DNA of 35,714 nucleotides from a virus (IMGVR_UViG_2734482773_000004), one strand, 5' to 3'; counted from the first letter of the stretch, positions 6,669-34,289 are shown. Numbers and translations: made by a program. The notes: a model not told the origin generated them from the sequence alone.

Positions 6669-8885
6669 CTAAGCGGTAACGTTCTCCTCTTCTAGTTCGT
6701 CCATCATTTTTAAATAATGCATTTCGTCACCAGTAGCTGAAAATATTGTTCTCAATTGTTTTAGGTATTTATCTGGGTCTATGTCGCCCATATCAGTAAT
6801 ATTTACCGCATCAGAGTGAGAACCTCTGTTAATGTATCTGTAGAATGCTTTGAAATCACTGTTGCTATCGTCGCGTGCCAACTTTGTTAATTCATCTTGT
6901 AGAGCATCTGTTCTATGAACAAATGCAAAATAATATTCTAGTATGTTTCTCATAATATTAGGTATTATGATTTTGTTTGCTTTGCCATCTTTTGCATCTT
7001 TTAATATTTGCCACAAAGATTGATATTCATTCTGTATGCTGTTTTTTTGTATTTCAGTAATTATACTAAAATCATTTTTCGTTACTCTACCTAGATAATA
7101 GTTTTTCTTAAATAGTTTGTCTTCTCTGCTTTTAGGAGATAGCTTAATAAGTTCATGAAAGAAATAAAGATTGTGAGTAAGGATTAATACCTTCTTTGTT
7201 AATTCATTTTTTATAATGTGGTGATGAATAATTGATGCGATGTCGTAGACATAGTTTTGCGATAGACTAGATATTGGATCGTCAATAACAATAAAAATAT
7301 CCCTGCTATCGGTATCATTTTTATCGGTTTTACCTTTACAGCACTCTAAAAAATAAAGAAACGTTATTAGTGTTTTTTCACCTTCGCTAAGAGATCTATA
7401 AACATTTTGGTTTTTTGTATGCCCTGGTCGAGATATAATGTACATATCTTTTCTTTCTGCATGTTTTTCAATACAAAAACCAGAGATCCCTAGATTTTTT
7501 AAATGGGTGTTTATTGAGTCTATCGTAGAATCAATGTTAGATATTTTATCTCGCAATGCTTTTATTGTGAGATTATTTTCTTTTCCTTGTTGCTCAATAT
7601 TATTTAATTCATCATGAACTTTCTTTTTGATATCAAAGAATTTTTCTTTGTGTTTGGATAAATTCTCTAAATCATCGCTGCAAAAAGCATGGAGAGCCCC
7701 CCAAACTTGTTTTCCGATTTTATTCTCATACTCTTTGAGTTTTTTAACCTTATCATTTATGTCTCTTATTTTTTTGTTAACAGCGTCTATGCTTTCCTGA
7801 ACATGATTTTCTAGTTCTTTATCAATTTCTAATGTAACGCATGTTGATGGATTGTTGATCTTATCAATAATGTTTATTAAATTTTTTTCTGCAATGTTTT
7901 GCAATATTTTAATATTGGAAATAATGATCTCTTTATCTTTCTCATTGATTAGTGCACATGATGATATATTGTTTTGTATTTCGTTAAAATGATATATGGT
8001 ATTTTTCTCATAAACTGACTTTATATCTGAGAGCTGTTTTACTTTCTTTGAATAACTTTCGTCAAATATTGATTTAAGGGCATTTAAAAATTCGTGACTA
8101 ATAGTTTTTTCCTGACAAAACGGACATGTAGAACCGTCTAAATAATGTTCTTTACCTTTTTTTACCCAGTCAAGATTATGAAGTTTATTAATGGTTTCTG
8201 ATAAATAGCTATTGCTTGTATCTATTATAGGGGTTGCTAATGTATTTACATCATCAATTGATGGGGTATATGGGTGTAAAGGAGTTATTAATGCGGTTTC
8301 ATTGTTTCTATTTTCTAATAGTATAGAGTATTCTTTTGCTATATCATTTAAATTAATAAAGGTGATTGGTGAGGATGATTTTATCATCTCAAAAAAAGGT
8401 CTTTTATAGCCAACTTTACCTTTCATTAAGGTTTTTAGTACAGAGTTTCTGATTGGTTCTGTTTTTTTCCAGATCGATTCGATGTATTCATTTTCTTTTT
8501 TTTCCATTTCTGCTTCTAATTTCAATAACACTCCTTTTTTTTGTCTATATTGCTCTGTAAGTTGCTGTTTAATTGCTTCTTTTTTAATTAATTGTTTTTC
8601 AATATCTGCATTTTCTTTACTTAATGTAAAAACACCTTTTTGTTCCTGTGCATTGTAGAAATTATCTTCAATAAATTTAGTGTTGTAAACAAGAGGTTTG
8701 TAATTGTCAAGAAGGGTACATTCACACTCGTTATAATCTGTGTGTGTAGAGTCGTAGAAATAATTTGAAATGGTAGATTTGCCACAACCATTTTGGCCGT
8801 ATAGTATGTTTACTCTTTTTTCAAGATTCAGTATTGTGAAGGCGTCTTTCTTATAACTGGTAACATTTTTTAATCTAAGTTCCAT
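6669..8885 (-). CDS. Cargo: Rad50/RloC-like ABC ATPase with CxxC zinc-hook-like motif and putative C-terminal nuclease domain, 738 aa
   Basis: Walker A GQNGCGKST, long coiled-coil insert with CPFC, signature LSEGEKT, Walker B IFIVIDDP, H-loop LTHN; C-terminal R-x3-E...H pattern; AT-rich; in the A-cos variable locus. Confidence 0.7.
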   Translation of the reverse strand: MELRLKNVTSYKKDAFTILNLEKRVNILYGQNGCGKSTISNYFYDSTHTDYNECECTLLDNYKPLVYNTKFIEDNFYNAQEQKGVFTLSKENADIEKQLIKKEAIKQQLTEQYRQKKGVLLKLEAEMEKKENEYIESIWKKTEPIRNSVLKTLMKGKVGYKRPFFEMIKSSSPITFINLNDIAKEYSILLENRNNETALITPLHPYTPSIDDVNTLATPIIDTSNSYLSETINKLHNLDWVKKGKEHYLDGSTCPFCQEKTISHEFLNALKSIFDESYSKKVKQLSDIKSVYEKNTIYHFNEIQNNISSCALINEKDKEIIISNIKILQNIAEKNLINIIDKINNPSTCVTLEIDKELENHVQESIDAVNKKIRDINDKVKKLKEYENKIGKQVWGALHAFCSDDLENLSKHKEKFFDIKKKVHDELNNIEQQGKENNLTIKALRDKISNIDSTIDSINTHLKNLGISGFCIEKHAERKDMYIISRPGHTKNQNVYRSLSEGEKTLITFLYFLECCKGKTDKNDTDSRDIFIVIDDPISSLSQNYVYDIASIIHHHIIKNELTKKVLILTHNLYFFHELIKLSPKSREDKLFKKNYYLGRVTKNDFSIITEIQKNSIQNEYQSLWQILKDAKDGKANKIIIPNIMRNILEYYFAFVHRTDALQDELTKLARDDSNSDFKAFYRYINRGSHSDAVNITDMGDIDPDKYLKQLRTIFSATGDEMHYLKMMDELEEENVTA

Positions 8886-18124: not shown

Positions 18125-18575
18125 GTTTAAGCGTTTTGAAGACCGGCTGGCCGGACTGGCTGAATCGCTGTCACCGTCTGGGCGTCGGCGACTGGCGATA
18201 GATATTGCGAAGAAGCTGCGCCAGCGCCAGCAGCAGCGAATTAAATTACAAAAAGCCCCGGATGGTACGCCGTATGTACCGAGAAAAAACCAACCAGTAC
18301 GTAATAAGAAAGGCCGGATAAAGCGGGAAATGTTTGTGAAATTACGCACTAACCGGTTTATGAAAGCAACAGGTAGCGAGAGTGCGGCGGTGGTGGCGTT
18401 TGCCAGCGGAGTACAACGAATTGCGCGAGTACATCAATTAGGGCTTAGGGATAAGCCGGGGCGTAATAGTGCTGTGGTGGAATATCCTGTTCGTGAGTTA
18501 TTTGGTTTTGACAAGGAATCTATACAATTGATAGAAAGGGAGTTATTAGTGATTCTATCGAAAGATGTTATATGA
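18117..18575 (+). CDS. S: Tail completion protein S, 152 aa, mosaic 3' portion
   Basis: N-terminus MNEFKRFEDRL as recalled for P2 S; DNA becomes AT-rich from about 18240, so the distal part looks exchanged. Confidence 0.85.
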   Translation: MNEFKRFEDRLAGLAESLSPSGRRRLAIDIAKKLRQRQQQRIKLQKAPDGTPYVPRKNQPVRNKKGRIKREMFVKLRTNRFMKATGSESAAVVAFASGVQRIARVHQLGLRDKPGRNSAVVEYPVRELFGFDKESIQLIERELLVILSKDVI

Positions 18576-19327
18576 GACGGGTGTTTGTGGATAAAAAGTT
18601 TTCCATTTTGAGAAAAAGAGTAAAGCATTCTCAAAAGAAAGTTATGGATTGTATTATTGCTGACCATAATGCTGATATATGTGTGTTATGCGGGAGTTCT
18701 GACGATATTACTCGTGAGCACATTATTCCTCAGTGGGCCTTTGAGTCAAATGCTGAAAAATCTTTAATTAATAAAAAGAATAATCAGTCAACTCATTACA
18801 TTAAAGCCACTGTACCAGCATGCAGAGTGTGCAATTCTGATTTGCTGGGAGTGTTTGAGTATAACCTGAAGAAATTTCTTACGGAAAAGAGGGGGGGTGA
18901 GTTAACAGATTATGAATATGATTGCATCATATGGTGGTTGCAATACATGGGCTTCAAGTTGCAATTAATGGATTTACGGACCCGCTTTCTCAGGTATAAA
19001 GGGGGTGATTATATCCCTTTTCTTGCAAACTTCCCGGTTGCAATGTTTTGGGGGGATGTCGATACGACGCCGGGGGATGTCTTCAGGATTATACGAAAAT
19101 CGCGACGCAATCTGATGTCGAAATGGAAGGATAAAAAACATAATTCTTTGATGGTTTTTGAAACATCAAACAAGAGTTTTCATTTCTTTCATAAGGTTGA
19201 TGAATTTATTTTTATTGAAATACCTCAGGTTAAGAAGGCGTTTTTCTTCTTTTTTAATAAAGAATTTGACAGCCATGATTTAGCTCATGAGGAGTGTATG
19301 AAGATTATAGAGAAGTGCTACAACTAA
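18572..19327 (+). CDS. Cargo: HNH-motif nuclease-like protein with unknown C-terminal domain, 251 aa
   Basis: CVLCG...REHIIPQW...N...CRVCN follows the HNH zinc-finger pattern; ATG overlaps S stop; AT-rich; occupies the P2 orf30 locus between S and V. Confidence 0.7.
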   Translation: MRRVFVDKKFSILRKRVKHSQKKVMDCIIADHNADICVLCGSSDDITREHIIPQWAFESNAEKSLINKKNNQSTHYIKATVPACRVCNSDLLGVFEYNLKKFLTEKRGGELTDYEYDCIIWWLQYMGFKLQLMDLRTRFLRYKGGDYIPFLANFPVAMFWGDVDTTPGDVFRIIRKSRRNLMSKWKDKKHNSLMVFETSNKSFHFFHKVDEFIFIEIPQVKKAFFFFFNKEFDSHDLAHEECMKIIEKCYN

Positions 19328-20388: not shown

Positions 20389-21297
20389 ATGCCGATTATC
20401 GACCTGAACCAGCTACCCGCACCGGATGTGGTCGAGGAGCTGGACTTTGAAACCATTCTTGCCGAACGCAAGGCGACACTGATTTCCCTTTACCCGGAAG
20501 ACCAGCAGGAGGCGGTCGCCCGTACCCTGACGCTGGAATCTGAGCCTCTCGTCAAACTGCTGGAGGAAAATGCTTATCGTGAGCTTATCTGGCGTCAGCG
20601 TGTGAATGAGGCCGCACGGGCGGTGATGCTGGCCTGTGCCGCCGGTAATGACCTTGATGTGATTGGTGCCAATTACAACACCACGCGCCTGATTATCACC
20701 CCGGCAGATGATTCGACTATCCCGCCGACACCGGCAGTGATGGAATCTGACACCGATTATCGTCTGCGTATTCAGCAGGCTTTTGAGGGCTTAAGCGTCG
20801 CCGGGTCAGTGGGAGCCTATCAGTATCATGGTCGCAGTGCTGACGGGCGTGTCGCGGATATTTCTGTCACCAGTCCGTCTCCTGCCTGTGTCACCATCTC
20901 TGTGCTGTCACGTGAAAATAACGGCGTCGCATCCGAAGACCTGCTGGCTGTGGTGCGTAACGCCCTTAATGGCGAGGACGTCAGGCCGGTGGCCGACCGC
21001 GTGACCGTGCAGTCTGCCGCCATCGTTGAATACCAGATAAACGCCACGCTTTACCTTTACCCTGGTCCCGAAAGCGAACCCATCCGCGCTGCCGCCGTGA
21101 AAAAACTGGAAGCGTACATCACGGCACAGCACCGGCTGGGGCGCGACATCCGTCTGTCTGCCATTTATGCCGCTTTGCATGTGGAAGGCGTGCAGCGTGT
21201 CGAGCTGGCCGCACCACTGGCCGACATCGTGCTCAACAGTACGCAGGCGTCTTTCTGCACCGAATACCGCGTCGTGACCGGAGGCTCGGATGAGTGA
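20389..21297 (+). CDS. J: Baseplate protein J, 302 aa
   Basis: Position and length as P2 J. Confidence 0.9.
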   Translation: MPIIDLNQLPAPDVVEELDFETILAERKATLISLYPEDQQEAVARTLTLESEPLVKLLEENAYRELIWRQRVNEAARAVMLACAAGNDLDVIGANYNTTRLIITPADDSTIPPTPAVMESDTDYRLRIQQAFEGLSVAGSVGAYQYHGRSADGRVADISVTSPSPACVTISVLSRENNGVASEDLLAVVRNALNGEDVRPVADRVTVQSAAIVEYQINATLYLYPGPESEPIRAAAVKKLEAYITAQHRLGRDIRLSAIYAALHVEGVQRVELAAPLADIVLNSTQASFCTEYRVVTGGSDE

Positions 21298-21820
21298 TTC
21301 GCGACTGCTGCCGACCGGCTCATCACCGCTTGAAGTTGCTGCCGCAAAAGCCTGTGCGGAAATTGAAAAAACGCCGGTCAGGATTCGTGAGCTGTGGAAC
21401 CCGGACACCTGCCCGGCAAATTTGCTGCCGTGGCTGGCGTGGGCGTTTTCGGTCGACAGGTGGGATGAAAAGTGGCCGGAAGCGACAAAACGCGCCGTTA
21501 TCCGCGATGCCTATTTCATCCACTGTCATAAGGGCACTATAGGTGCAATCCGGCGTGTGGTGGAGCCGCTCGGCTATCTCATCAACGTGACGGAGTGGTG
21601 GGAAAACAGTGACCCGCCCGGCACCTTCCGGCTTGATATTGGTGTACTGGAAAGCGGTATCACAGAGGCAATGTATCAGGAAATGGAACGGCTGATTGCT
21701 GATGCCAAACCTGCAAGCCGCCACCTTATTGGTCTGAACATTACCCGGGACATTCCCGGCTACCTGTTCGTCGGTGGTGTGGCTTATGACGGCGATGTAA
21801 TTACGGTTTACCCCGGATAA
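21290..21820 (+). CDS. I: Baseplate/tail-fibre attachment protein I, 176 aa
   Basis: Position and length as P2 I; overlaps J end. Confidence 0.9.
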   Translation: MSDSRLLPTGSSPLEVAAAKACAEIEKTPVRIRELWNPDTCPANLLPWLAWAFSVDRWDEKWPEATKRAVIRDAYFIHCHKGTIGAIRRVVEPLGYLINVTEWWENSDPPGTFRLDIGVLESGITEAMYQEMERLIADAKPASRHLIGLNITRDIPGYLFVGGVAYDGDVITVYPG

Positions 21821-21830
21821 GTGAGGAATA

Positions 21831-24149
21831 ATGAGCACAAAATTCAGAACCGTTATCACCACTGCCGGTGCAGCAAAGCTGGCAGCGGCAACCGCACCGG
21901 GAGGGCGGAAGGTCAACATTACCACGATGGCCGTCGGGGATGGCGGTGGTAAATTGCCTGTCCCGGATGCCGGACAGACCGGGCTTATCCACGAAGTCTG
22001 GCGACATGCGCTGAACAAAATCAGCCAGGACAAACGAAACAGTAATTATATTATCGCAGAGCTGGTTATTCCGCCGGAGGTGGGCGGTTTCTGGATGCGT
22101 GAGCTTGGCCTGTACGATGATGCAGGAACGTTAATTGCCGTGGCGAACATGGCCGAAAGTTATAAGCCTGCCCTTGCCGAAGGCTCAGGGCGTTCGCAGA
22201 CCTGCCGCATGGTCATCATCGTCAGCAGTGTGGCCTCAGTGGAGCTGACCATTGACACCACAACGGTGATGGCAACGCAGGATTACGTTGATGACAAAAT
22301 TGCAGAGCACGAACAGTCACGACGTCACCCGGACGCCTCGCTGACCGCAAAAGGTTTTACTCAGCTAAGCAGCGCGACCAACAGCACGTCTGAAACACTG
22401 GCCGCAACGCCGAAAGCGGTAAAGGCCGCCTATGACCTTGCTAACGGGAAATATACTGCGCAGGATGCCACCACGGCGCGAAAAGGCCTTGTTCAGCTCA
22501 GTAGTGCGACCAACAGCTCGTCTGAAACGCTCGCCGCAACGCCGAAAGCGGTAAAGGCAGCATATGACCTTGCTAACGGGAAATACACTGCACAGGACGC
22601 CACCACCGCGCGAAAAGGCCTTGTTCAGCTTAGTAGCGCCACCAACAGCGATTCTGAAACGCTTGCGGCAACACCAAAGGCGGTTAAGACAGCGTATGAC
22701 CTTGCTAACGGGAAATACACTGCACAGGATGCCACCACTGCGCGAAAAGGTCTTGTCCAGCTAAGTAGCGCCACCAACAGTGATTCTGAAACCCTCGCGG
22801 CAACGCCAAAAGCAGTGAAGTCTGCCTATGACAATGCTGAAAAACGTCTTCAGAAAGATCAGAACGGTGCGGATATTCCGGGAAAGGATACCTTCACGAA
22901 AAATATCGGAGCCTGTCGTGCTTATAGCGGCGCTTTGAGCACTGAAGCCGGAAACTGGACAACCGCTCAGTTTATTGAATGGCTGGATTCCCGTGGTGCA
23001 TTTAATCATCCGTACTGGATGTGCAAAGGCTCCTGGTCATATGCAAATAACAAAATCATTACGGATACCGGATGTGGTGATATCCACCTGGCTGGTTGTG
23101 TCGTCGAGGTCATGGGAACTAAATCTGCAATCACTATCCGAGTGACCACGCCGACAACATCAAGCGGTGGCGGTACAACCAGCGCGCAATTCACTTACAT
23201 TAATCATGGGGACGGCTACTCCCCCGGCTGGCGTCGTGACTGGAATCGTCAGGGCGACTCAATGACCGGAACGATTAATCAGGATGGCGGAAGCCAGAAT
23301 GCCTATATGTCTACGGCCTTATGTTCAGGCACCAGAGGCGGCAAAAAATATCTCAGAAAGTTTCGTGGTGGAGAAGGAGACACTATCTGGCATGAAACAG
23401 TACAGGGCGGGGTAGTTCGCTGGGCGACTGGTAATACTGATGCTCAGGAAGAATTATCACTCAGCTCCGCTTATGGTCTCCGTTCAAGAGGTGAGATTAC
23501 ATCAAGCAGTGCTAATGGTCTGCGCATTGCTTATGGCAATTATGGATTCTTTATCAGGAATGATGGCAGCAGCACTTATTTTATGTTGACTAAATCAGGT
23601 GACAGATTAGGCACTTATAATAATTTAAGACCACTGATTATAAATGATGCCACGGGTGCTGTATCAATGGGGCATGGCCTGAGTGTTACTGGTGATATTG
23701 CCTCAAGTACCAAAGTACGTGCCGGTAGCGGGAAAAAATTCACGGTCAGCAGCAGTAATACATCCACGAAGGAAGCCGCATTCAATTTGTGGGGCAACTC
23801 AAGTCGTCCGGTGGTGGCTGAATTAGGTGATGATGCAGGCTGGCATTTTTACAGTCAGAGAAATACAGATAACAGCATCACTTTTGCTGTTAACGGGCAG
23901 GTATCACCATCTAACTATAGTAATTTTGATTCACGCTATGTCCGGGATATCCGGCTTGGTGGTGCTGCCACATACAAACCTGCGAACAATGGCATGACAT
24001 GGACACATCAGGCACCGTCCGGGTGTGTATATTCCGGCATTATTGTTCAGGATACCGGCTCAAACTCTGCCGATAACATTGGTGGCGTATATTACAGACC
24101 GGTGCAGAAATACATTAACGGGACTTGGTATAACGTGGCGCAGGTATAA
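21831..24149 (+). CDS. H: Tail fibre protein H, 772 aa, with four tandem 44-aa repeats and a divergent AT-rich C-terminal domain
   Basis: Position after I; about 100 aa longer than recalled P2 H (669 aa), roughly the size of the repeat expansion; C-terminal half lies in lower-GC DNA. Confidence 0.88.
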   Translation: MSTKFRTVITTAGAAKLAAATAPGGRKVNITTMAVGDGGGKLPVPDAGQTGLIHEVWRHALNKISQDKRNSNYIIAELVIPPEVGGFWMRELGLYDDAGTLIAVANMAESYKPALAEGSGRSQTCRMVIIVSSVASVELTIDTTTVMATQDYVDDKIAEHEQSRRHPDASLTAKGFTQLSSATNSTSETLAATPKAVKAAYDLANGKYTAQDATTARKGLVQLSSATNSSSETLAATPKAVKAAYDLANGKYTAQDATTARKGLVQLSSATNSDSETLAATPKAVKTAYDLANGKYTAQDATTARKGLVQLSSATNSDSETLAATPKAVKSAYDNAEKRLQKDQNGADIPGKDTFTKNIGACRAYSGALSTEAGNWTTAQFIEWLDSRGAFNHPYWMCKGSWSYANNKIITDTGCGDIHLAGCVVEVMGTKSAITIRVTTPTTSSGGGTTSAQFTYINHGDGYSPGWRRDWNRQGDSMTGTINQDGGSQNAYMSTALCSGTRGGKKYLRKFRGGEGDTIWHETVQGGVVRWATGNTDAQEELSLSSAYGLRSRGEITSSSANGLRIAYGNYGFFIRNDGSSTYFMLTKSGDRLGTYNNLRPLIINDATGAVSMGHGLSVTGDIASSTKVRAGSGKKFTVSSSNTSTKEAAFNLWGNSSRPVVAELGDDAGWHFYSQRNTDNSITFAVNGQVSPSNYSNFDSRYVRDIRLGGAATYKPANNGMTWTHQAPSGCVYSGIIVQDTGSNSADNIGGVYYRPVQKYINGTWYNVAQV
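22350..22877 (+). repeat. Four tandem 132-bp (44-codon) in-frame repeats within H
   Basis: aaagg repeat anchors at 22350, 22482, 22614 and 22746 (period exactly 132); protein unit is approximately KGLVQLSSATNS-SETLAATPKAVKAAYDLANGKYTAQDATTAR. Confidence 0.9.
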
Positions 24150-24152
24150 TTT

Positions 24153-24680
24153 ATGCAGCATTTGATAAATATAACGGCAGGTAATCCAAAAACGGTTGAA
24201 CAATATCAATTGACAAAGGATTTTGATGTTGTCTGGTTTTTTACAGAAGATGGTAAGAACTGGTACGAAGAACAAAAGTATTTTGCTGATGACACGATAA
24301 AAATAGCGTACGACAAAGATAATATCATCCGCTATGTGGAAAAGGATGTGACAGCTATCAGACCGGATGGATTAAGTGTGGTTGAAGTGGCGGATATTAC
24401 TGCTAACCGACGGGCGGATATTTCAGGGGGCTGGATGTTTAAGGACGGCAAAGTGATTAAACGCATTTATACGGCAGAGGAATTACAGCAGCAGGCAGAA
24501 ATTCGGAAAGCCAGACTTCTTGCAGATGCTGAATCCGTGATTTTGCCGCTGGAGCGCGCGGTCAGACTGAACATGGCAACAGATGAGGAGCGTAGCCGAC
24601 TGGAAGCATGGGAGCGCTACAGCGTTCTGGTCAGTCGTGTGGATCCTGCAAATCCTGAATGGCCGGAAATGCCGCAATAA
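24153..24680 (+). CDS. G: Tail fibre assembly chaperone G, 175 aa
   Basis: Immediately downstream of H; length as P2 G; AT-rich 5' portion. Confidence 0.85.
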
Positions 24681-24849
24681 GTTGTATGAGCTCTGGTGTG
24701 AGCTTACATATCTATGGCACAGAGTAAAGCCTAATCTGACAGTCAGCTCTGTGCCAAAAGCAGACGTTCAAGTTATACTGTCCATTTCTGCAATCAGTCA
24801 CCTGCAACTATGCGGCCAATTGCAAAGATGGCGGTAATAAACAATAGTT

Positions 24850-24885
24850 GATTTGCCGGCGTGGTCGTATAAATGCTGGCAAATC
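24850..24885 (-). terminator. Possible terminator hairpin downstream of the minus-strand cargo gene
   Basis: gatttgccggc (24850..24860) pairs with gctggcaaatc (24875..24885) with one mismatch; moderately T-rich following sequence on the minus strand. Confidence 0.3.
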
Positions 24886-24925
24886 CCCTCTTGACGTAAT
24901 TCCCAGCCCCATCCGGACACGATAG

Positions 24926-25630
24926 TCATTTTGTTTTCATATCGTTTTTTAAGCTCTTCTGTTTGAACTCCAACCCATTAATATTCTCCATGCGAAAGTA
25001 AGTCAGCTGATGAATCACTTTCCCGTTAACCACGTTCCATGTAAAAACATTTTCGTCATACACTTTTGCTATTGCATATTCTTTATTATTCATGATAAAT
25101 ACTGTGAATTCGTTGCCGTGAACAGATGATCTACCCAGTCCTATAAAGGTAAGGGAAAAGAAGAAAGCAATGGCTGCACCGTTGAGAGCCTGAATACCAA
25201 ACTCTCTGATATTCCCTCTATCAAAGGAAGCATTTTTCTTTTCAACATGGATAGGTATCCACTGGCTCAGCAAGTGTAAAAGAACGAGCGCATTAAAAAC
25301 AAAAAGCAGCAGAATGTCGAGTGGAATGTTTAGCATGGAATATGCACCGGCCACATATACTACGCTTATCCCTAAATGTGCAGCGGCTCTTTTATGTTTA
25401 TCATCCTTCGCCCATATAAGAAAAGCAGTGGATATCGTCAATAAAGGAAATGAAAAAAGACATATACTCATAATGTCATTGCTTATCGTGGGAATGCTGA
25501 GAGTTATTAAATCCAACGGTATATTCAGCTCACTGGCGACCCCCCTTTCATAAAAATATACGGCGGCATAAAAAGCTGCCGTCAGGCCCGCTACAAATAA
25601 AGATTCTTTTTTTAAGATATAGTTGTACAT
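24926..25630 (-). CDS. Cargo: polytopic membrane protein (about 4 predicted TM helices) with small C-terminal soluble domain, 234 aa
   Basis: Hydrophobic segments at roughly residues 11-27, 45-70, 83-120 and 150-168; AT-rich; minus strand within the G-FI variable locus. Confidence 0.65.
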   Translation of the reverse strand: MYNYILKKESLFVAGLTAAFYAAVYFYERGVASELNIPLDLITLSIPTISNDIMSICLFSFPLLTISTAFLIWAKDDKHKRAAAHLGISVVYVAGAYSMLNIPLDILLLFVFNALVLLHLLSQWIPIHVEKKNASFDRGNIREFGIQALNGAAIAFFFSLTFIGLGRSSVHGNEFTVFIMNNKEYAIAKVYDENVFTWNVVNGKVIHQLTYFRMENINGLEFKQKSLKNDMKTK

Positions 25631-26157
25631 AACATTCCTGTAATGCTTTTTTCAGCATATCAAATTGCCTGACTGGCCCGACAACTCATTTCATAACGAA
25701 CTAAATGTTCGCAAAATGCAGGGAGTCAGAGACTTCTTTTCGGTCTGATTAATACTCCCAAACCACCGCGATGTCCCTTACACTGAAGAGAATGCGATAG
25801 CATCAGAAATAATTTATCAGTTCAGATTCGTTGAGTTCTATGACTATGAGCACGTGTATTTCCTTGATTGCCGTTCCATCACGACAGGTCCGCAACGTGC
25901 TAGAAATAGATATTATAACATTTGTATGTCCTAATTTCCTAGAGCTGTGAGCAGATCAACGTCATTTCGTCCTGACCGGCCCCCTATACTTCCTACAGTT
26001 CTGATGTTGCTGCTGGGCGAAGCTGAAATCGAAGGAGGGAATACTCTTATTTAACGTTAGCGGAGAATGTGTTTCGACAAAATCCGCTAATTTTACCACA
26101 AAAAATGAGGGAATGGGCTAAGCCCAATTAAGCTTATTAAACAAATAATCTGAAGAT

Positions 26158-27123
26158 TTATTTGTTGGCATTTTTCTCTTTTCCGAATTTGTATTTTAGT
26201 TCATCTACTGTAATGATATCTATCTCAATTGGGAAATTGGCTTTACGCTTGATTTTTGAAATCAGCTTCATGAATGAGTTCGCTTCATTATAATTTTTTG
26301 CCGTGATTACATAGACAATATAGACTCTAAAGCCTTTAAAATGCCTCCAGCTCTCGTTGATCAAATCTAGGGTGCTAAGAATATTAGCGCTCTTCAGCGG
26401 ACTAAACACATCGATTTCCAAGAAAATAATTTCACCAGTTAAAACTCCATTGGAAATTGGAGGGTAATAAGCGCCATCAAAATTGTGATAACCGAATTCA
26501 TTTCTCATCTCGGTTTTGTCAACATCAAAACTTACATCAAGCTTAGATTCAGCATATTGAAAAGCCATATATGATACTTCATTACCGAGTTTTTTAAGCA
26601 TTTTCTCCTTCTTGTCAACAGTCTCAGAGACAGAATTCAAGGGGGAGGTCTTTAATGATGGGATAATGGTGCCTACCGAGAAATATTTGTCATCTTGTTT
26701 AGAGGACTCACTTTCTTGTCGACTGTTTTCATCTTTACCAGCAAACTCATTATTTTTAGGAGTCATTTCCTCTTCTAATATAGATACGTTTGGCACATCA
26801 TTTTTATCTAATGGGGAGGTAATGGATATACCCTGCAGACCTATCAAAGTCATATAGTTTTTCTCATCCGCAAAATCACTGGGAGCATAAAGGGACTCCG
26901 GCTTCTTATGGAGAGTGAAAAAAAATAGACTAACTAAGAATGTAGGGAAGAACATTAGAAAAAATATATATATTTTTTGATTTGGCTCGGATATCCATGG
27001 GAGTATTGCTGTACCGCTTACCTCTGCTAGCCCAGCAAACATTGCAATAATAGTTAAGGGGTTTTTTACTAATGAAATAGCACCAGCCATTGTCATATCC
27101 TTATAAAAATTCAAATAGCTCAT
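26158..27123 (-). CDS. Cargo: membrane-anchored protein (2 N-terminal TM helices, acidic/Ser-rich linker, C-terminal domain of about 150 aa), 321 aa
   Basis: N-terminal hydrophobic helices, low-complexity linker (EEEMTPKNNEFAGKDENSRQESESSKQDDK), AT-rich; minus strand within the G-FI variable locus. Confidence 0.65.
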   Translation of the reverse strand: MSYLNFYKDMTMAGAISLVKNPLTIIAMFAGLAEVSGTAILPWISEPNQKIYIFFLMFFPTFLVSLFFFTLHKKPESLYAPSDFADEKNYMTLIGLQGISITSPLDKNDVPNVSILEEEMTPKNNEFAGKDENSRQESESSKQDDKYFSVGTIIPSLKTSPLNSVSETVDKKEKMLKKLGNEVSYMAFQYAESKLDVSFDVDKTEMRNEFGYHNFDGAYYPPISNGVLTGEIIFLEIDVFSPLKSANILSTLDLINESWRHFKGFRVYIVYVITAKNYNEANSFMKLISKIKRKANFPIEIDIITVDELKYKFGKEKNANK

Positions 27124-27385
27124 TGCGACACACGCTCACCAGAGCGTGAAATTTGTTCATATCTTAATTATTAAAACCTACTGAGTCCACAATGTCATTT
27201 TATCTCGCTGGAGTCCAGAGTGACCAGTTCCCAGTGATTGACAATTAATGTTGTTAGCAATGCCTGCATCTCGCTCAAAGCAGACTGTCAGATTTGACAA
27301 AGTTTTGGCTACGTAATTTGTCAGTTGGAAACTGAGTGAGTGCAAATCATGACAGGTAGGCGGATTACCCGCCTTTTCTTTGTCT

Positions 27386-27395
27386 GTTGTTTCAT
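27386..27395. promoter_or_regulatory. Candidate late-promoter motif TGTTGTTTCA upstream of FI
   Basis: Variant of the decamer found upstream of O and V, followed by CTGACCAG similar to the V upstream CTGACAGA. Confidence 0.35.
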
Positions 27396-27477
27396 CCACT
27401 GACCAGCCAGGTCAAATAGCGTCTCATGCTCTGCACAACAGAAAATAGTTGCACCCATTAACCACGGAGTTAAACGG

Positions 27478-28668
27478 ATGAGTGACTATCATCACGGCGT
27501 GCAGGTGCTGGAGATTAACGACGGCACCCGCGTCATTTCCACCGTATCCACCGCCATTGTTGGCATGGTCTGCACGGCCAGCGATGCGGATGCGGAAATC
27601 TTCCCCCTCAATAAACCGGTGCTGATTACCAATGTGCAGAGCGCAATTGCAAAGGCCGGTAAAAAAGGCACGCTGACGGCGTCGTTGCAGGCCATCGCTG
27701 ACCAGTCAAAACCGGTCACCGTTGTTGTGCGCGTGGAAGACGGCACCGGCGACGACGAAGAAACGAAACTTGCGCAGACCGTTTCCAATATCATCGGCAC
27801 CACCGACGAAAACGGTCAGTACACCGGACTGAAAGCCCTGCTGGCGGCGGAGTCGGTAACCGGTGTTAAACCGCGTATTCTCGGCGTGCCGGGACTGGAC
27901 ACCAAAGAGGTGGCTGTTGCACTGGCATCAGTCTGTCAGAAGCTGCGCGCTTTCGGATATATCAGCGCATGGGGCTGTAAGACCATTTCCGAGGTGAAAG
28001 CCTACCGCCAGAATTTCAGCCAGCGTGAGCTGATGGTCATCTGGCCGGATTTCCTCGCATGGGATACGGTCACCAGTACCACCGCCACCGCGTATGCCAC
28101 CGCCCGTGCGCTGGGTCTGCGCGCTAAAATCGACCAGGAGCAGGGCTGGCATAAAACGCTGTCCAATGTCGGGGTGAACGGTGTTACCGGCATCAGCGCA
28201 TCCGTCTTCTGGGATTTGCAGGAGTCCGGCACCGATGCTGACCTGCTTAACGAGTCAGGCGTCACTACGCTGATTCGCCGCGACGGTTTCCGCTTCTGGG
28301 GTAACCGTACCTGCTCCGATGACCCGCTGTTCCTCTTTGAAAACTACACCCGCACCGCGCAGGTGCTGGCCGACACGATGGCTGAGGCGCACATGTGGGC
28401 GGTGGACAAGCCCATCACCGCAACGCTGATTCGCGACATCGTTGACGGCATCAATGCCAAATTTCGTGAGCTGAAAACAAACGGCTATATCGTGGATGCG
28501 ACCTGCTGGTTCAGCGAAGAATCCAACGATGCGGAAACCCTCAAGGCCGGAAAACTGTATATCGACTACGACTATACCCCGGTGCCTCCTCTCGAAAACC
28601 TGACCCTGCGCCAGCGTATTACCGATAAATACCTGGCAAATCTGGTCACTTCGGTTAACAGCAATTAA
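27478..28668 (+). CDS. FI: Tail sheath protein FI, 396 aa
   Basis: Position and length as P2 FI. Confidence 0.92.
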   Translation: MSDYHHGVQVLEINDGTRVISTVSTAIVGMVCTASDADAEIFPLNKPVLITNVQSAIAKAGKKGTLTASLQAIADQSKPVTVVVRVEDGTGDDEETKLAQTVSNIIGTTDENGQYTGLKALLAAESVTGVKPRILGVPGLDTKEVAVALASVCQKLRAFGYISAWGCKTISEVKAYRQNFSQRELMVIWPDFLAWDTVTSTTATAYATARALGLRAKIDQEQGWHKTLSNVGVNGVTGISASVFWDLQESGTDADLLNESGVTTLIRRDGFRFWGNRTCSDDPLFLFENYTRTAQVLADTMAEAHMWAVDKPITATLIRDIVDGINAKFRELKTNGYIVDATCWFSEESNDAETLKAGKLYIDYDYTPVPPLENLTLRQRITDKYLANLVTSVNSN

Positions 28669-34180: not shown

Positions 34181-34208
34181 TAAAAAATAAGCCCGTGTAA
34201 GGGAGATT
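34181..34208. repeat. attR: attR core, 28-bp direct repeat
   Basis: Identical to 476..503; overlaps the 3' terminator of the CyaR sRNA. Confidence 0.85.
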
Positions 34209-34268
34209 ACACAGGCTAAGGAGGTGGTTCCTGGTACAGCTAGCATTTTATGGGTTATGTTTTTCAGC
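34182..34268 (-). ncRNA. cyaR: CyaR (RyeE) CRP-dependent Hfq-binding sRNA, about 87 nt
   Basis: Minus-strand sequence gctgaaaaacauaacccauaaaaugcuagcuguaccaggaaccaccuccuuagccuguguaaucucccuuacacgggcuuauuuuuu matches my recollection of CyaR; terminator stem formed by gccuguguaa and uuacacgggc plus U-run; lies between yegQ and the prophage as in K-12. Confidence 0.75.
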
Positions 34269-34289
34269 GAAACGGATGATAACCTTAAT

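What the first reader, a model, noticed from the sequence alone, without database searches (positions are those of the whole stretch)
23400..24680. AT-rich host-range cassette: H C-terminal domain plus chaperone G
Composition drops visibly in the distal third of H and the 5' part of G relative to the surrounding structural genes, consistent with horizontal exchange of the receptor-binding tip and its cognate assembly chaperone as a unit, a known pattern in P2/Mu/lambda-type fibres.
Basis: partly seen in the sequence, partly recalled or inferred. Interest (0 to 1): 0.4.

Follow-up and report, generated by a model that had tools for sequence, protein, structure and literature searches.

The report
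Mosaic P2 tail-fibre tip and chaperone
The AT-rich stretch is real and is the swappable far end of a P2-type phage tail fibre gene together with the matching half of its assembly chaperone. This is a long-known way for phages to change host range, so the finding is correct in outline but ordinary.

Summary
The window is a complete P2-like prophage of E. coli, 100% identical to strain FDAARGOS_1285. H (21831-24149) is the tail fibre gene and G (24153-24680) its Tfa-type chaperone.

The composition drop is real. GC is about 0.56 up to 23431 and 0.33-0.49 through distal H and the first two thirds of G. It returns to about 0.52-0.56 in the last third of G. GC3 falls as well.

The 23400-24680 interval is not one cassette:
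- **Shaft module.** 22990-23888 is 99.3% identical to Yersinia-plating phage vB_YpM_115 and absent from P2.
- **Crossover.** A sharp crossover lies at 23925-23935, inside the conserved NFDSRYVRDIRLG motif.
- **Tip and chaperone.** The 62-aa tip plus the G N-domain (aa 1-125) are about 97% identical to P24E6b and fiAA91-ss, which carry different shafts.
- **Conserved end.** The G C-domain is conserved in every relative examined.

Across 164 related loci, tip type and G N-domain type are perfectly linked, while shaft and H N-terminal types reassort. dS between the two G N-domain alleles is saturated, against 0.06-0.12 in J and I.

All alleles, and Mu S/U, show the same AT-richness. Low GC therefore marks the shared module pool, not a recent event. 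This is known biology (Haggard-Ljungquist 1992; North 2019), so interest is low.

The parts
21589..21820 (+). 3' end of baseplate gene I (about aa 100-176): the variable part that co-varies with the H N-terminus
   Evidence: P24E6b and P37 drop to 82-85% identity here while the rest of J and I stays at 94-100%. The I C-terminal allele is perfectly linked to the H N-terminal allele, 75/75 and 14/14.
21831..22283 (+). H aa 1-151: N-terminal baseplate-attachment domain, P2 backbone allele
   Evidence: Pfam PF12571 E 1.6e-58. 96-100% nt identity to P2, fiAA91-ss, vB_YpM_115 and 12474II. 66-86% to P37 and P24E6b, with dS about 1.8-1.9. GC 0.56.
22361..22832 (+). Tandem array of 3.6 copies of a 132-nt unit, encoding the Phage_fiber_2 shaft repeats (44 aa each)
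   Evidence: TRF finds period 132, 3.6 copies, 87% matches. Pfam PF03406 matches four times, E 2.6e-77. Repeat number differs between relatives, and H length ranges from 621 to 919 aa.
22836..23291 (+). H aa 336-487: domain homologous to the variable part of Mu S' (the G(-) fibre)
   Evidence: PDB 8JU3_A residues 179-332, E 1e-69. 69% aa identity to Mu S'v of NC_000929. 22990-23241 is 74-78% nt identical to Mu, SfMu, P1-like RCS47 and P88.
22990..23888 (+). Pre-tip shaft module, with its own ancestry
   Evidence: 99.3% identical to Yersinia phage vB_YpM_115 and 94.3% to P37 over its full length. Only 7 phage records cover at least 80% of it. It is absent from P2, P24E6b and, beyond 23241, fiAA91-ss.
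23432..23921 (+). AT-rich trough of H (aa 534-697): shaft like Mu S and the T4 gp34 C-terminus, including the Gp34_trimer domain
   Evidence: Change-point at 23431/2. Minimum GC 0.373 at 23481-23630. Pfam PF21446 at aa 540-604. Mu S 260-343 and T4 gp34 chains 5NXF/4UXE match. 23533-23606 is up to 88% nt identical to T-even gp34 genes.
23922..23960 (+). Conserved junction motif NFDSRYVRDIRLG (H aa 698-710); the crossover lies at 23925-23935
   Evidence: Upstream (23703-23924), 143 of 144 informative sites match vB_YpM_115. From 23936 the window matches P24E6b. The switch of tip type falls at this same motif in five different shaft backgrounds.
23961..24149 (+). H tip (aa 711-772, 62 aa, 'type A') plus stop codon: presumed receptor-binding and chaperone-binding end
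   Evidence: 93-99% nt identity to P24E6b and fiAA91-ss, against 47-82% to P2-type tips. Three tip types occur among 164 loci. Homologous to the Mu S C-terminus, 50% aa identity.
24153..24527 (+). G aa 1-125: variable N-terminal (fibre-binding) domain of the Tfa chaperone, 'type A' allele
   Evidence: All 23 fixed differences between types A and B lie in aa 23-125. dS against type B is 1.6-2.2 or undefined, and 0.10-0.11 against P24E6b and fiAA91-ss. GC 0.41, GC3 0.39. 66% aa identity to Mu U and 69% to Mu U'.
24528..24680 (+). G aa 126-175 plus stop codon: conserved C-terminal (oligomerisation) domain of the chaperone
   Evidence: No fixed differences between types. All 164 loci fall in a single cluster. 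GC 0.57. 86% aa identity to Mu U but only 32% to Mu U'.
24681..24768 (+). Conserved non-coding segment after G: right-hand homology flank of the cassette and left border of the cargo hotspot. It holds a 9-bp-stem hairpin (24716-24755) and the left arm of a 12-nt inverted repeat (24733-24744).
   Evidence: 89-92% identical in P2, fiAA91-ss, vB_YpM_115, P24E6b and 12474II, after which similarity ends. The inverted repeat is described.

Best explanation
H and G are the tail fibre and its Tfa-type assembly chaperone of a P2-like prophage. H is built from independently inherited modules:
- an N-terminal baseplate-docking domain that co-varies with the C-terminus of gpI;
- a variable number of 44-aa shaft repeats;
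- a Mu S'-like domain;
- an AT-rich shaft like Mu S and T4 gp34;
- a conserved 13-aa junction motif;
- a 62-aa tip.

The tip and the N-terminal domain of G (aa 1-125) are inherited together as a cassette of about 0.6-0.7 kb. Two conserved sequences bracket it: the junction motif in H on the left, and the G C-domain plus about 90 nt of conserved downstream DNA on the right. These provide homology for recombination with other fibre genes (P2-like, Mu-like, P1-like).

By homology with Mu S/U, the mechanism would be as follows. The G N-domain binds the fibre tip. The conserved G C-domain drives trimerisation from the C-terminus. The tip, possibly with bound G, contacts the LPS receptor. Swapping the cassette would then change host range while keeping a matched fibre-chaperone interface.

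What is shown: gene identities, module boundaries, linkage, depth of allele divergence and composition. What is inferred: physical binding, receptor specificity and the recombination mechanism.

The low GC is a standing property of the whole interchangeable module pool. It also appears in Mu, so it does not date or prove a transfer in this prophage.
For: **Identity.** Pfam and PHROG assignments. G matches 5YVQ_B at E 6e-82 and 72% identity. H matches 8JU3_A, 5YVQ_A and T4 gp34 chains. The window is a full P2 gene map, 100% identical to an E. coli chromosome.

**Mosaic.** The 100-nt identity profile against six phages shows different nearest relatives for 20389-22400, 22990-23888 and 23920-24680. 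The phage-database searches agree.

**Crossover.** 143 of 144 informative sites switch over to about 222 of 228 between 23924 and 23936. This lies within NFDSRYVRDIRLG. The same junction recurs in five shaft backgrounds.

**Linkage.** Tip type against G N-domain type is 82/82 and 82/82. Tip A occurs on 6 pre-tip clusters, tip B on 11 and tip 2 on 2. All four combinations of H N-terminal type and tip type exist.

**Depth of divergence.** dS in the G N-domain between types is at least 1.6 or undefined. It is 0.06-0.12 in J and I and 0.15-0.64 in the G C-domain.

**Domain structure of G.** All 23 fixed differences lie in aa 23-125 and none in aa 126-175. The N-domain is 69% identical to Mu U', while the C-domain is 86% identical to U and only 32% to U'.

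**Published model.** In Tfa proteins a non-conserved N-domain binds the fibre tip and a conserved C-domain mediates trimerisation (North et al. 2019, as summarised in PMC9608196). P2 fibres bind LPS, gpG is needed for assembly, and the fibres have formed natural fusions by horizontal transfer (PMC9594776, citing Haggard-Ljungquist 1992).

**Composition.** All alleles have variable modules at GC 0.40-0.49 and conserved ends at 0.55-0.56. Mu gives baseplate 0.544, Sv 0.450, U aa 1-125 0.397 and U aa 126-175 0.556.
Against: - No experiment here shows that this tip binds a receptor or that G type A is required for tip type A.
- Five loci with a third tip type resemble type A in their C-terminal half, yet carry a G whose aa 27-125 are type-B-like, with a distinct aa 1-30. 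Tip similarity and G similarity are therefore not strictly one-to-one, and chaperone specificity may be looser, or lie in fewer residues, than the cassette model implies.
- The 164 loci were collected by G type and include many near-identical prophages, so the linkage counts are not independent events.
- The right-hand boundary is diffuse. Alleles converge somewhere between G codons 126 and 155, and it differs between relatives.
- Constraint on the encoded proteins could contribute to low GC, since GC at codon positions 1 and 2 also falls.
Confidence: 0.85

Rival explanations
1. The whole AT-rich block 23432-27494 is one foreign island, made of distal H, G and the downstream cargo genes and acquired in a single event.
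For: Window-scale segmentation returns it as one segment with GC 0.409.
Against: - The 3' third of G and the next 90 nt are GC-normal and conserved in all P2-like relatives.
- The cargo DNA 24769-27258 occurs in only 2 of 5426 E. coli genomes, whereas this H-G allele has at least 80% coverage in 139.
- Relatives with the same tip and G carry different cargo.
Confidence: 0.02
2. The divergence and low GC arose in place, through rapid diversifying selection on the receptor-binding end and its chaperone, without horizontal exchange.
For: Receptor-binding regions are classic targets of diversifying selection. dN in the G N-domain between types is high, at 0.22-0.24.
Against: - Synonymous divergence is saturated (dS at least 1.6), against 0.06-0.12 in the flanking genes.
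- Near-identical cassettes (97%) sit on different shafts and different H N-terminal alleles, and all four combinations are present.
- The change in identity is step-like, within about 10 nt.
- Homologous modules occur in Mu, P1-like and T-even phages.
Confidence: 0.03
3. The low GC reflects constraints on the encoded proteins or on expression, rather than ancestry. Candidate constraints are beta-rich shafts high in Asn, Ser, Thr, Tyr and Gly, codon choice that slows translation for trimer folding, or H-NS silencing. The modules may be exchanged, but composition says nothing about origin.
For: The same low GC appears in all 14 pre-tip clusters, all 3 tip types, both G N-domain types and in Mu. 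GC at codon positions 1 and 2 also drops in parts of distal H and in the 5' part of G.
Against: - GC3 drops at least as much, for example 0.63 to 0.39-0.40, which amino-acid content cannot explain.
- A 70-nt stretch of the trough is up to 88% identical at DNA level to genes of T-even phages. From my own knowledge, not tested here, T-even genomes are AT-rich (T4 about 35% GC). This fits circulation through AT-richer genomes.
- A selective reason for AT-rich synonymous sites is neither shown nor excluded.
Confidence: 0.1
4. The region is a remnant of, or equivalent to, an invertible host-range segment of the Mu G or P1 C type. On this reading the two minus-strand ORFs after G would be an alternative S'/U' set.
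For: G and parts of H are close homologues of Mu U, S and S'. Two ORFs lie on the opposite strand directly after G. A 12-nt inverted repeat flanks them.
Against: - The two ORFs have no Pfam, PHROG tail-fibre, NCBIfam or PADLOC match.
- Their models are membrane proteins, one with a nuclease-like domain.
- No invertase gene lies between G and FI.
- The inverted repeat is conserved around cargo of 68 different lengths in P2-like loci and bears no resemblance, from memory, to gix/cix sites.
Confidence: 0.01

Closest known systems
Bacteriophage P2 gpH / gpG (AF063097)
   Same: Same operon position (V-W-J-I-H-G). J, I and H aa 1-190 are 94-100% identical at nt level. Same N-terminal domain, fibre repeats, junction motif and conserved last 20 aa of H. 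G has the same length (175 aa) and is 74% identical.
   Different: From about 22800 onward H has no DNA-level match to P2 H, apart from short patches at 72-81%. The tip is 62 aa of type A, against 54 aa of type B in P2. The G N-domain is a different allele with saturated dS. H is 772 aa here and 669 aa in P2.
Phage Mu tail fibre S/S' and assembly protein U/U' (PDB 5YVQ, 8JU3)
   Same: G is 72% identical to U over all 175 aa. H aa 336-487 matches S'. H aa 544-627 matches S 260-343. The tip and junction motif align with the S C-terminus. G has the same two-domain logic, and the composition pattern is the same, with an AT-rich variable fibre part and Tfa N-domain and a GC-normal Tfa C-domain.
   Different: There is no invertible segment, no gin and no second inverted fibre/chaperone set. 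The N-terminal attachment domain is P2-type (26% local identity to Mu S). One H protein combines S'-like and S-like segments that in Mu belong to alternative fibres.
Yersinia-plating Peduovirus vB_YpM_115 and P37
   Same: They share the pre-tip shaft module 22990-23888 (99.3% and 94.3%). vB_YpM_115 also shares everything upstream.
   Different: They carry the P2-type (type B) tip and G N-domain. Identity falls to 47-82% after 23936.
Peduovirus P24E6b, fiAA91-ss and relatives (D8, 10W-12W, PhiR44_1)
   Same: Same tip and G cassette, 93-100% per 100-nt window from about 23890/23920 to 24680.
   Different: Their shafts are different (H of 919 and 692 aa). P24E6b also has the other H N-terminal and I C-terminal allele.
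T4-type long tail fibre proximal subunit gp34, C-terminal region (PF21446; PDB 5NXF, 4UXE)
   Same: H aa 550-623 and 648-697 are homologous (E about 1e-25). 23533-23606 is 80-88% identical at nt level to T-even gp34 genes.
   Different: In T4 this domain ends the proximal half-fibre. Here it lies just before the receptor-binding tip of a single-protein fibre. The DNA-level match covers only about 70 nt.

Membership tests
P2-type tail fibre (gpH) | N-terminal 'tail-collar fibre' domain (Pfam PF12571) that docks on the baseplate, encoded directly after gene I | tested here: met
   PF12571 at aa 1-151, E 1.6e-58. Gene order V-W-J-I-H-G is as in AF063097. 97% nt identity to P2 H over aa 1-150.
P2-type tail fibre (gpH) | Phage_fiber_2 shaft repeats (PF03406) | tested here: met
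   Four matches, E 2.6e-77. A 132-nt tandem array of 3.6 copies.
P2-type tail fibre (gpH) | The C-terminal tip binds the host receptor (LPS core for P2) | not testable with these tools
   Inferred from homology to Mu S and from the literature on P2 (PMC9594776).
Tail fibre assembly protein, Tfa (Caudo_TAP, PF02413; Mu U / P2 G / lambda Tfa) | Caudo_TAP domain, with the gene immediately downstream of the fibre gene | tested here: met
   PF02413 E 6.2e-34. phrog_136 E 2.6e-78. 5YVQ_B E 6.1e-82. G starts 4 nt after the H stop codon.
Tail fibre assembly protein, Tfa (Caudo_TAP, PF02413; Mu U / P2 G / lambda Tfa) | Two-domain build: a variable N-domain that binds the fibre and a conserved C-domain that oligomerises | tested here: met
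   At sequence level only. There are 23 fixed type differences in aa 23-125 and none in aa 126-175. The G C-domain forms a single cluster across 164 loci. Identity to Mu U' is 69% in the N-domain and 32% in the C-domain. The model is from North 2019, via PMC9608196.
Tail fibre assembly protein, Tfa (Caudo_TAP, PF02413; Mu U / P2 G / lambda Tfa) | Forms a physical complex with the fibre C-terminus and is required for fibre trimerisation | not testable with these tools
   Not tested. This needs co-expression and pull-down, or a multimer structure.
Horizontally exchanged fibre-tip and chaperone cassette | Nearest relatives of the cassette differ from those of the flanking fibre and baseplate sequence, with a sharp breakpoint | tested here: met
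   the switch from vB_YpM_115-like to P24E6b-like lies between 23924 and 23936.
Horizontally exchanged fibre-tip and chaperone cassette | Tip and chaperone alleles are inherited together while other fibre modules reassort | tested here: met
   Linkage is 82/82 and 82/82. The tip types occur on 6, 11 and 2 shaft clusters. All four combinations with the H N-terminal alleles exist. Caveat: tip type 2 pairs with a type-B-like G.
Horizontally exchanged fibre-tip and chaperone cassette | Cassette alleles are much older than the backbone (synonymous divergence) | tested here: met
   dS is at least 1.6 or undefined, against 0.06-0.12 in J and I.
Horizontally exchanged fibre-tip and chaperone cassette | Atypical composition is specific to the imported allele | tested here: not met
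   All alleles, and Mu, share the low GC. Composition does not discriminate between alleles.
Invertible host-range segment (Mu G, P1 C, e14 P) | Adjacent serine invertase (gin/cin/pin) and an inverted alternative fibre-end and chaperone gene set | tested here: not met
   There is no such gene between G and FI. The two minus-strand ORFs have no fibre or Tfa similarity.

The most novel reading that the evidence does not exclude
The P2 fibre may be inherited as 'interface pairs'. Two matched cassettes sit at its two ends: the I C-terminus with the H N-terminus, and the H tip with the G N-domain. They reassort freely around a shaft patched together from Mu S'-, Mu S- and T4 gp34-like pieces.

On this reading the SRYV(R/K)D(I/V/L/M)RLG-coding motif acts as a recurrent, quasi-dedicated crossover point. 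The uniformly AT-rich composition of all interchangeable modules would be actively maintained rather than a relic, either by circulation through AT-rich phages or by selection. That would give a predictable natural 'plug-in' junction for retargeting P2 particles.
Probability: 0.25. Interest if true: 0.3.

Novelty: already known. Interest (0 to 1): 0.12.

Why it matters
The practical value is modest. The analysis gives exact natural splice points for swapping host range in P2-type particles. The left junction is H codons 699-702 in the NFDSRYVRDIRLG motif. The right junction is at G codons about 126-155.

It also shows that the chaperone's N-domain should be moved together with the tip, and that the G C-domain can stay. 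This is relevant to P2/P4-based delivery particles and pseudotyped fibres (PMC9594776).

There is also a caution for genome scans. An AT-rich trough in a fibre gene marks the interchangeable module pool, not a recent acquisition.

Biologically, the finding restates what has been known since the 1992 P2 H/G paper and the 2019 Mu Tfa structure.

Tried and rejected
- **One AT-rich island from distal H to the cargo.** Rejected: the G 3' end and the following 90 nt are conserved, and the cargo and the H-G allele have very different prevalence.
- **Invertible Mu-like segment.** Rejected: no invertase, and the downstream minus-strand ORFs are not fibre or Tfa genes.
- **Amino-acid composition as the sole cause of low GC.** Rejected: GC3 also falls.
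- **In-place diversifying selection.** Rejected: dS is saturated and all four allele combinations exist.
- **NCBIfam for H and G.** No hit.
- **Rfam over the window.** Nothing in or near the finding; only CyaR outside the prophage. No tRNA.
- **Inverted-repeat scan of 21800-27500.** Nothing flanks the H-tip/G cassette itself; the repeats flank only the cargo.
- **Literature.** The 1992 P2 H/G paper (PMC206541), the P2 review (PMC4836473) and North & Davidson 2021 (PMC7811200) are not held in the library. They are cited only through other papers' reference lists and from my own knowledge.
- **Self-correction.** My first estimate of about 85% identity between H aa 336-487 and Mu S' was read by eye from the alignment to the PDB 8JU3 chain. 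Direct alignment to the S' of NC_000929 gives 69%.
Full report
**Context.** The 35.7-kb window is a complete P2-like (Peduovirus) prophage of Escherichia coli.
- Its ORF map reproduces the P2 order int-C-cox-B-A / Q-P / O-N-M-L-X-Y-K-lysA-lysB-R-S / V-W-J-I-H-G / FI-FII-E-T-U-D-ogr.
- The H-G stretch is 100% identical to the chromosome of E. coli FDAARGOS_1285, where PGAP calls the two genes 'tail fiber protein' and 'tail fiber assembly protein'.
- The sRNA gene cyaR lies just outside the right end.
- H is 21831-24149 (772 aa) and G is 24153-24680 (175 aa).

- Whole-window change-point segmentation puts a break at 23431/23432 (LLR 60). GC is 0.562 to the left and 0.409 to the right.
- Inside the V-G operon alone, the best single split is at 22807, from 0.573 to 0.468, with LLR 26.8. 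The null maxima from 1000 shuffles were 10.1 (single sites) and 11.5 (30-nt blocks).
- In 150-nt blocks the deepest troughs are 23481-23630 (0.373) and 24153-24302 (0.333). GC recovers to 0.51-0.54 after 24453.
- Third codon positions fall too, so this is not just amino-acid content.
The decline actually starts at the end of the repeat region.
- At window scale the AT-rich block merges with unrelated cargo beyond G.

**What the genes are.** H carries several recognisable parts:
- the P2 N-terminal fibre domain (PF12571, aa 1-151);
- four Phage_fiber_2 repeats, encoded by a 132-nt tandem array at 22361-22832;
- a Gp34_trimer domain at aa 540-604.

Against solved structures:
- H aa 336-487 match the Mu G(-) fibre S' (8JU3, E 1e-69). 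Identity to the S' of NC_000929 is 69%.
- H aa 544-627 match Mu S 260-343 and the C-terminal region of T4 gp34.
- The last 75 aa align with the Mu S C-terminus at 50% identity.

G is a Caudo_TAP protein, 72% identical over its full length to Mu U, the chaperone in the 5YVQ fibre-chaperone complex.

**Mosaic structure.** I compared J-I-H-G with P2, fiAA91-ss, P37, vB_YpM_115, P24E6b and vB_EcoM-12474II. Identity to the window, by segment:

| Window segment | High identity | Low or no identity |
|---|---|---|
| 20389 to about 22400 (J, I, H N-terminus) | P2, fiAA91-ss, vB_YpM_115, 12474II: 94-100% | P37 and P24E6b: 66-86% from the 3' end of I through H aa about 190 |
| 22990-23888 (pre-tip shaft) | vB_YpM_115 98-100%; P37 mostly 91-100%, with one 73% patch | P2, P24E6b: no match apart from one isolated 73% window against P2; fiAA91-ss: none beyond 23241 |
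| 23889-24688 (tip and G) | P24E6b 93-99%; fiAA91-ss 84-100% | vB_YpM_115, P37, P2, 12474II: 47-85% |
| 24589-24688 (3' end of G) | all six relatives: 84-98% | none |

A three-way informative-site analysis of the window, vB_YpM_115 and P24E6b gives a sharp result. Upstream (23703-23924), 143 of 144 sites are vB_YpM_115-like. From 23936 to 24614, about 222 of 228 are P24E6b-like. The crossover interval, 23925-23935, is H codons 699-702. It lies inside the conserved motif NFDSRYVRDIRLG (aa 698-710).

The phage database confirms the different affinities.
- The pre-tip module is covered at 80% or more of its length in only seven phage records, all Y. pestis-plating Peduovirus.
- Sub-pieces of it occur at 74-78% in Mu (S' region), SfMu and P1-like phages.
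- A 70-nt piece occurs at up to 88% in T-even gp34 genes.
- The tip and G N-domain cassette is at 93% or higher in 22 Peduovirus records, and at no more than about 75% elsewhere, including P2, Mu, D108 and P1.

**Is the tip exchanged with the chaperone as a unit?** I collected 160 further loci from IMG/VR, the best 80 for each G type. For each I extracted H and G and clustered five modules.
- Among 164 loci with the junction motif, tip type A always goes with G N-domain type A (82/82).
- Tip types B and 2 always go with G N-domain type B (77 and 5).
- The shaft just upstream falls into 14 clusters. Tip A occurs on 6 of them, tip B on 11 and tip 2 on 2. Three clusters, including the window's, carry both A and B.
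- The two H N-terminal alleles occur with both tip types, so all four combinations exist.
- In five shaft backgrounds the switch of tip type happens at the same SRY..RLG motif. Divergence is a few percent before it and about 50% after it.
- The G C-domain is a single cluster in all loci.
- All 23 fixed differences between G types lie in aa 23-125.

Synonymous divergence separates the histories.
- Between G N-domain types, dS is 1.6-2.2 or not computable.
- For J and I against the same phages, dS is 0.06-0.12.
- Against phages with the same cassette, dS is 0.10-0.11.

These are old alleles moved between backbones, not in-place divergence.

Caveats:
- The loci were sampled by G type and many are near-duplicates. 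The number of distinct backgrounds, not the raw counts, is the independent evidence.
- Tip type 2 resembles tip A in its C-terminal half but pairs with a type-B-like G that has a distinct aa 1-30. Specificity may therefore be looser, or more local, than a simple pairing.

**What the low GC means.**

| Module | GC | GC3 |
|---|---|---|
| Pre-tip shaft, all clusters and tip types | 0.42-0.47 | variable modules together: 0.31-0.49 |
| Tip, all types | 0.43-0.49 | (as above) |
| G N-domain, both types | 0.40-0.41 | (as above) |
| H N-terminus (conserved) | 0.56 | not listed |
| G C-domain (conserved) | 0.55-0.56 | not listed |

Phage Mu, an unrelated backbone, shows the same pattern: baseplate genes 0.544, variable S 0.450, U aa 1-125 0.397, U aa 126-175 0.556, U' 0.425 and S'v 0.473.

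The trough is therefore a standing property of the shared pool of interchangeable fibre-end and chaperone N-domain modules. It does not show that this prophage acquired its cassette recently. Indeed, this exact H-G combination is covered at 80% or more, with about 97-98% identity in the best matches listed, in 139 of 5426 complete E. coli genomes.

**Mechanism.** Shown: the gene identities, module borders, linkage, depth of divergence and composition above. Inferred from the Mu S/U work, as summarised in PMC9608196 and PMC11915804, and from the P2 literature (PMC9594776):
- The fibre trimer docks by its N-terminus on the gpI wedge protein.
- The G N-domain binds the fibre tip.
- The conserved G C-domain nucleates trimerisation from the C-terminus.
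- The tip, possibly with G still attached as in Mu, contacts LPS.

Two conserved sequences bracket the variable 0.6-0.7 kb and offer homology for recombination with other fibre genes. They are the junction motif on the left, and the G C-domain plus about 90 nt of conserved downstream DNA on the right. G itself is a domain chimera. Its N-domain is as close to Mu U' (69%) as to U (66%). Its C-domain is U-like (86%) and unlike U' (32%).

[quoted passage not shown] That paper is not held in the library and is cited here through. The Tfa two-domain model comes from North et al. 2019. The alleles themselves are common and already annotated. I therefore rate the finding as already known, with low interest.

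**Rejected alternatives.** Four readings were tested and rejected:
- a single AT-rich island;
- in-place diversifying selection;
- amino-acid composition alone;
- a Mu-like invertible segment.

The reasons are given in the rival-explanations and tried-and-rejected sections.

**Side observations.**
- The position between G and FI, where P2 carries Z/fun, holds a rare two-gene cargo found in 2 of 5426 E. coli genomes. One protein is a two-TM protein with a C-terminal domain of PD-(D/E)XK nuclease-like fold. The other is a five-helix membrane protein.
- A conserved 12-nt inverted repeat borders this hotspot in most P2-like loci, whatever the cargo.
- A second co-varying pair, the I C-terminus with the H N-terminus, exists at the other end of the fibre.

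Noticed in passing
window 26158-27123 (-) and 24926-25630 (-): An AT-rich (GC 0.36-0.40) two-gene cargo sits at the position between G and FI where P2 carries Z/fun. It has no Pfam, NCBIfam or PADLOC hit, and its DNA occurs in only 2 of 5426 complete E. coli genomes.

The 234-aa protein has 11 homologues. Its model shows five long helices plus a small beta domain, with no significant fold match.

Together these are a candidate membrane-anchored nuclease for superinfection exclusion or abortive infection.
   Followed up: partly
window 24733-24744 (+) and 27283-27294 (-): A perfect 12-nt inverted repeat, AATCTGACAGTC, flanks the cargo. The extended arms are 36 nt and 78% complementary. Two copies are present where 0.14 would be expected by chance.

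In 101 of 112 P2-like loci that reach FI, both arms are present. The left arm lies about 52 nt after the G stop codon, and the right arm about 179 nt before the FI ribosome-binding site. This holds for cargo of 68 different lengths (117-3949 nt). Phage P37, which has no cargo, lacks both arms.

The left arm lies in the loop and 3' stem of a 9-bp hairpin (24716-24755). Its function is unknown; it could be a hotspot border element.
   Followed up: partly
window 21589-22400: A second co-varying cassette lies at the other end of the fibre: the C-terminal part of baseplate protein I (from aa 100 or 134 to 176) and the H N-terminus. They exist as two alleles with dS about 1.8-1.9 between them. The two are perfectly linked (75/75 and 14/14 loci) and reassort freely with the tip/G types. 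This fits the Mu structure, where the fibre N-terminus docks on a loop (residues 133-155) of wedge protein gp48; from my own knowledge, not tested here, gp48 is the counterpart of P2 gpI.
   Followed up: partly
window 6669-8885 (-): A very AT-rich (GC about 0.28) 738-aa AAA_13 ATPase sits at the P2 old/tin position between A and Q. It matches the PADLOC candidate defence family PDC-S06 (E 1.6e-254) and, distantly, PrrC and LmuB. It matches phrog_2801 over its full length.
   Followed up: partly
window 18572-19327 (+): An AT-rich (GC about 0.37-0.39) 251-aa ORF lies between S and V, the position of P2 orf30, but on the opposite strand to P2 orf30. It matches phrog_10503 over its full length, with no Pfam or PADLOC hit. 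In the identical RefSeq genome, PGAP annotates two shorter hypothetical CDS here instead.
   Followed up: no
window 34185-34270 (-): The CyaR/RyeE sRNA gene (Rfam RF00112, 100.7 bits) lies immediately outside the ogr end of the prophage. From memory, this places the prophage at the chromosomal site that in K-12 holds the ogrK remnant.
   Followed up: no
IMG/VR loci L149, L152, L154, L156, L165: A third tip type (61 aa, SQQYYGVNNWQTWNFQCPSGHVLSGINVQDTGSNSADNIAGVYYRPVQKYINGTWYNVASV) resembles the window's tip in its C-terminal half. It is paired with a G that is P2-type in aa 27-125 and has a distinct aa 1-30 ([30 protein letters not shown]). This is an exception to simple tip/chaperone similarity matching.
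   Followed up: no
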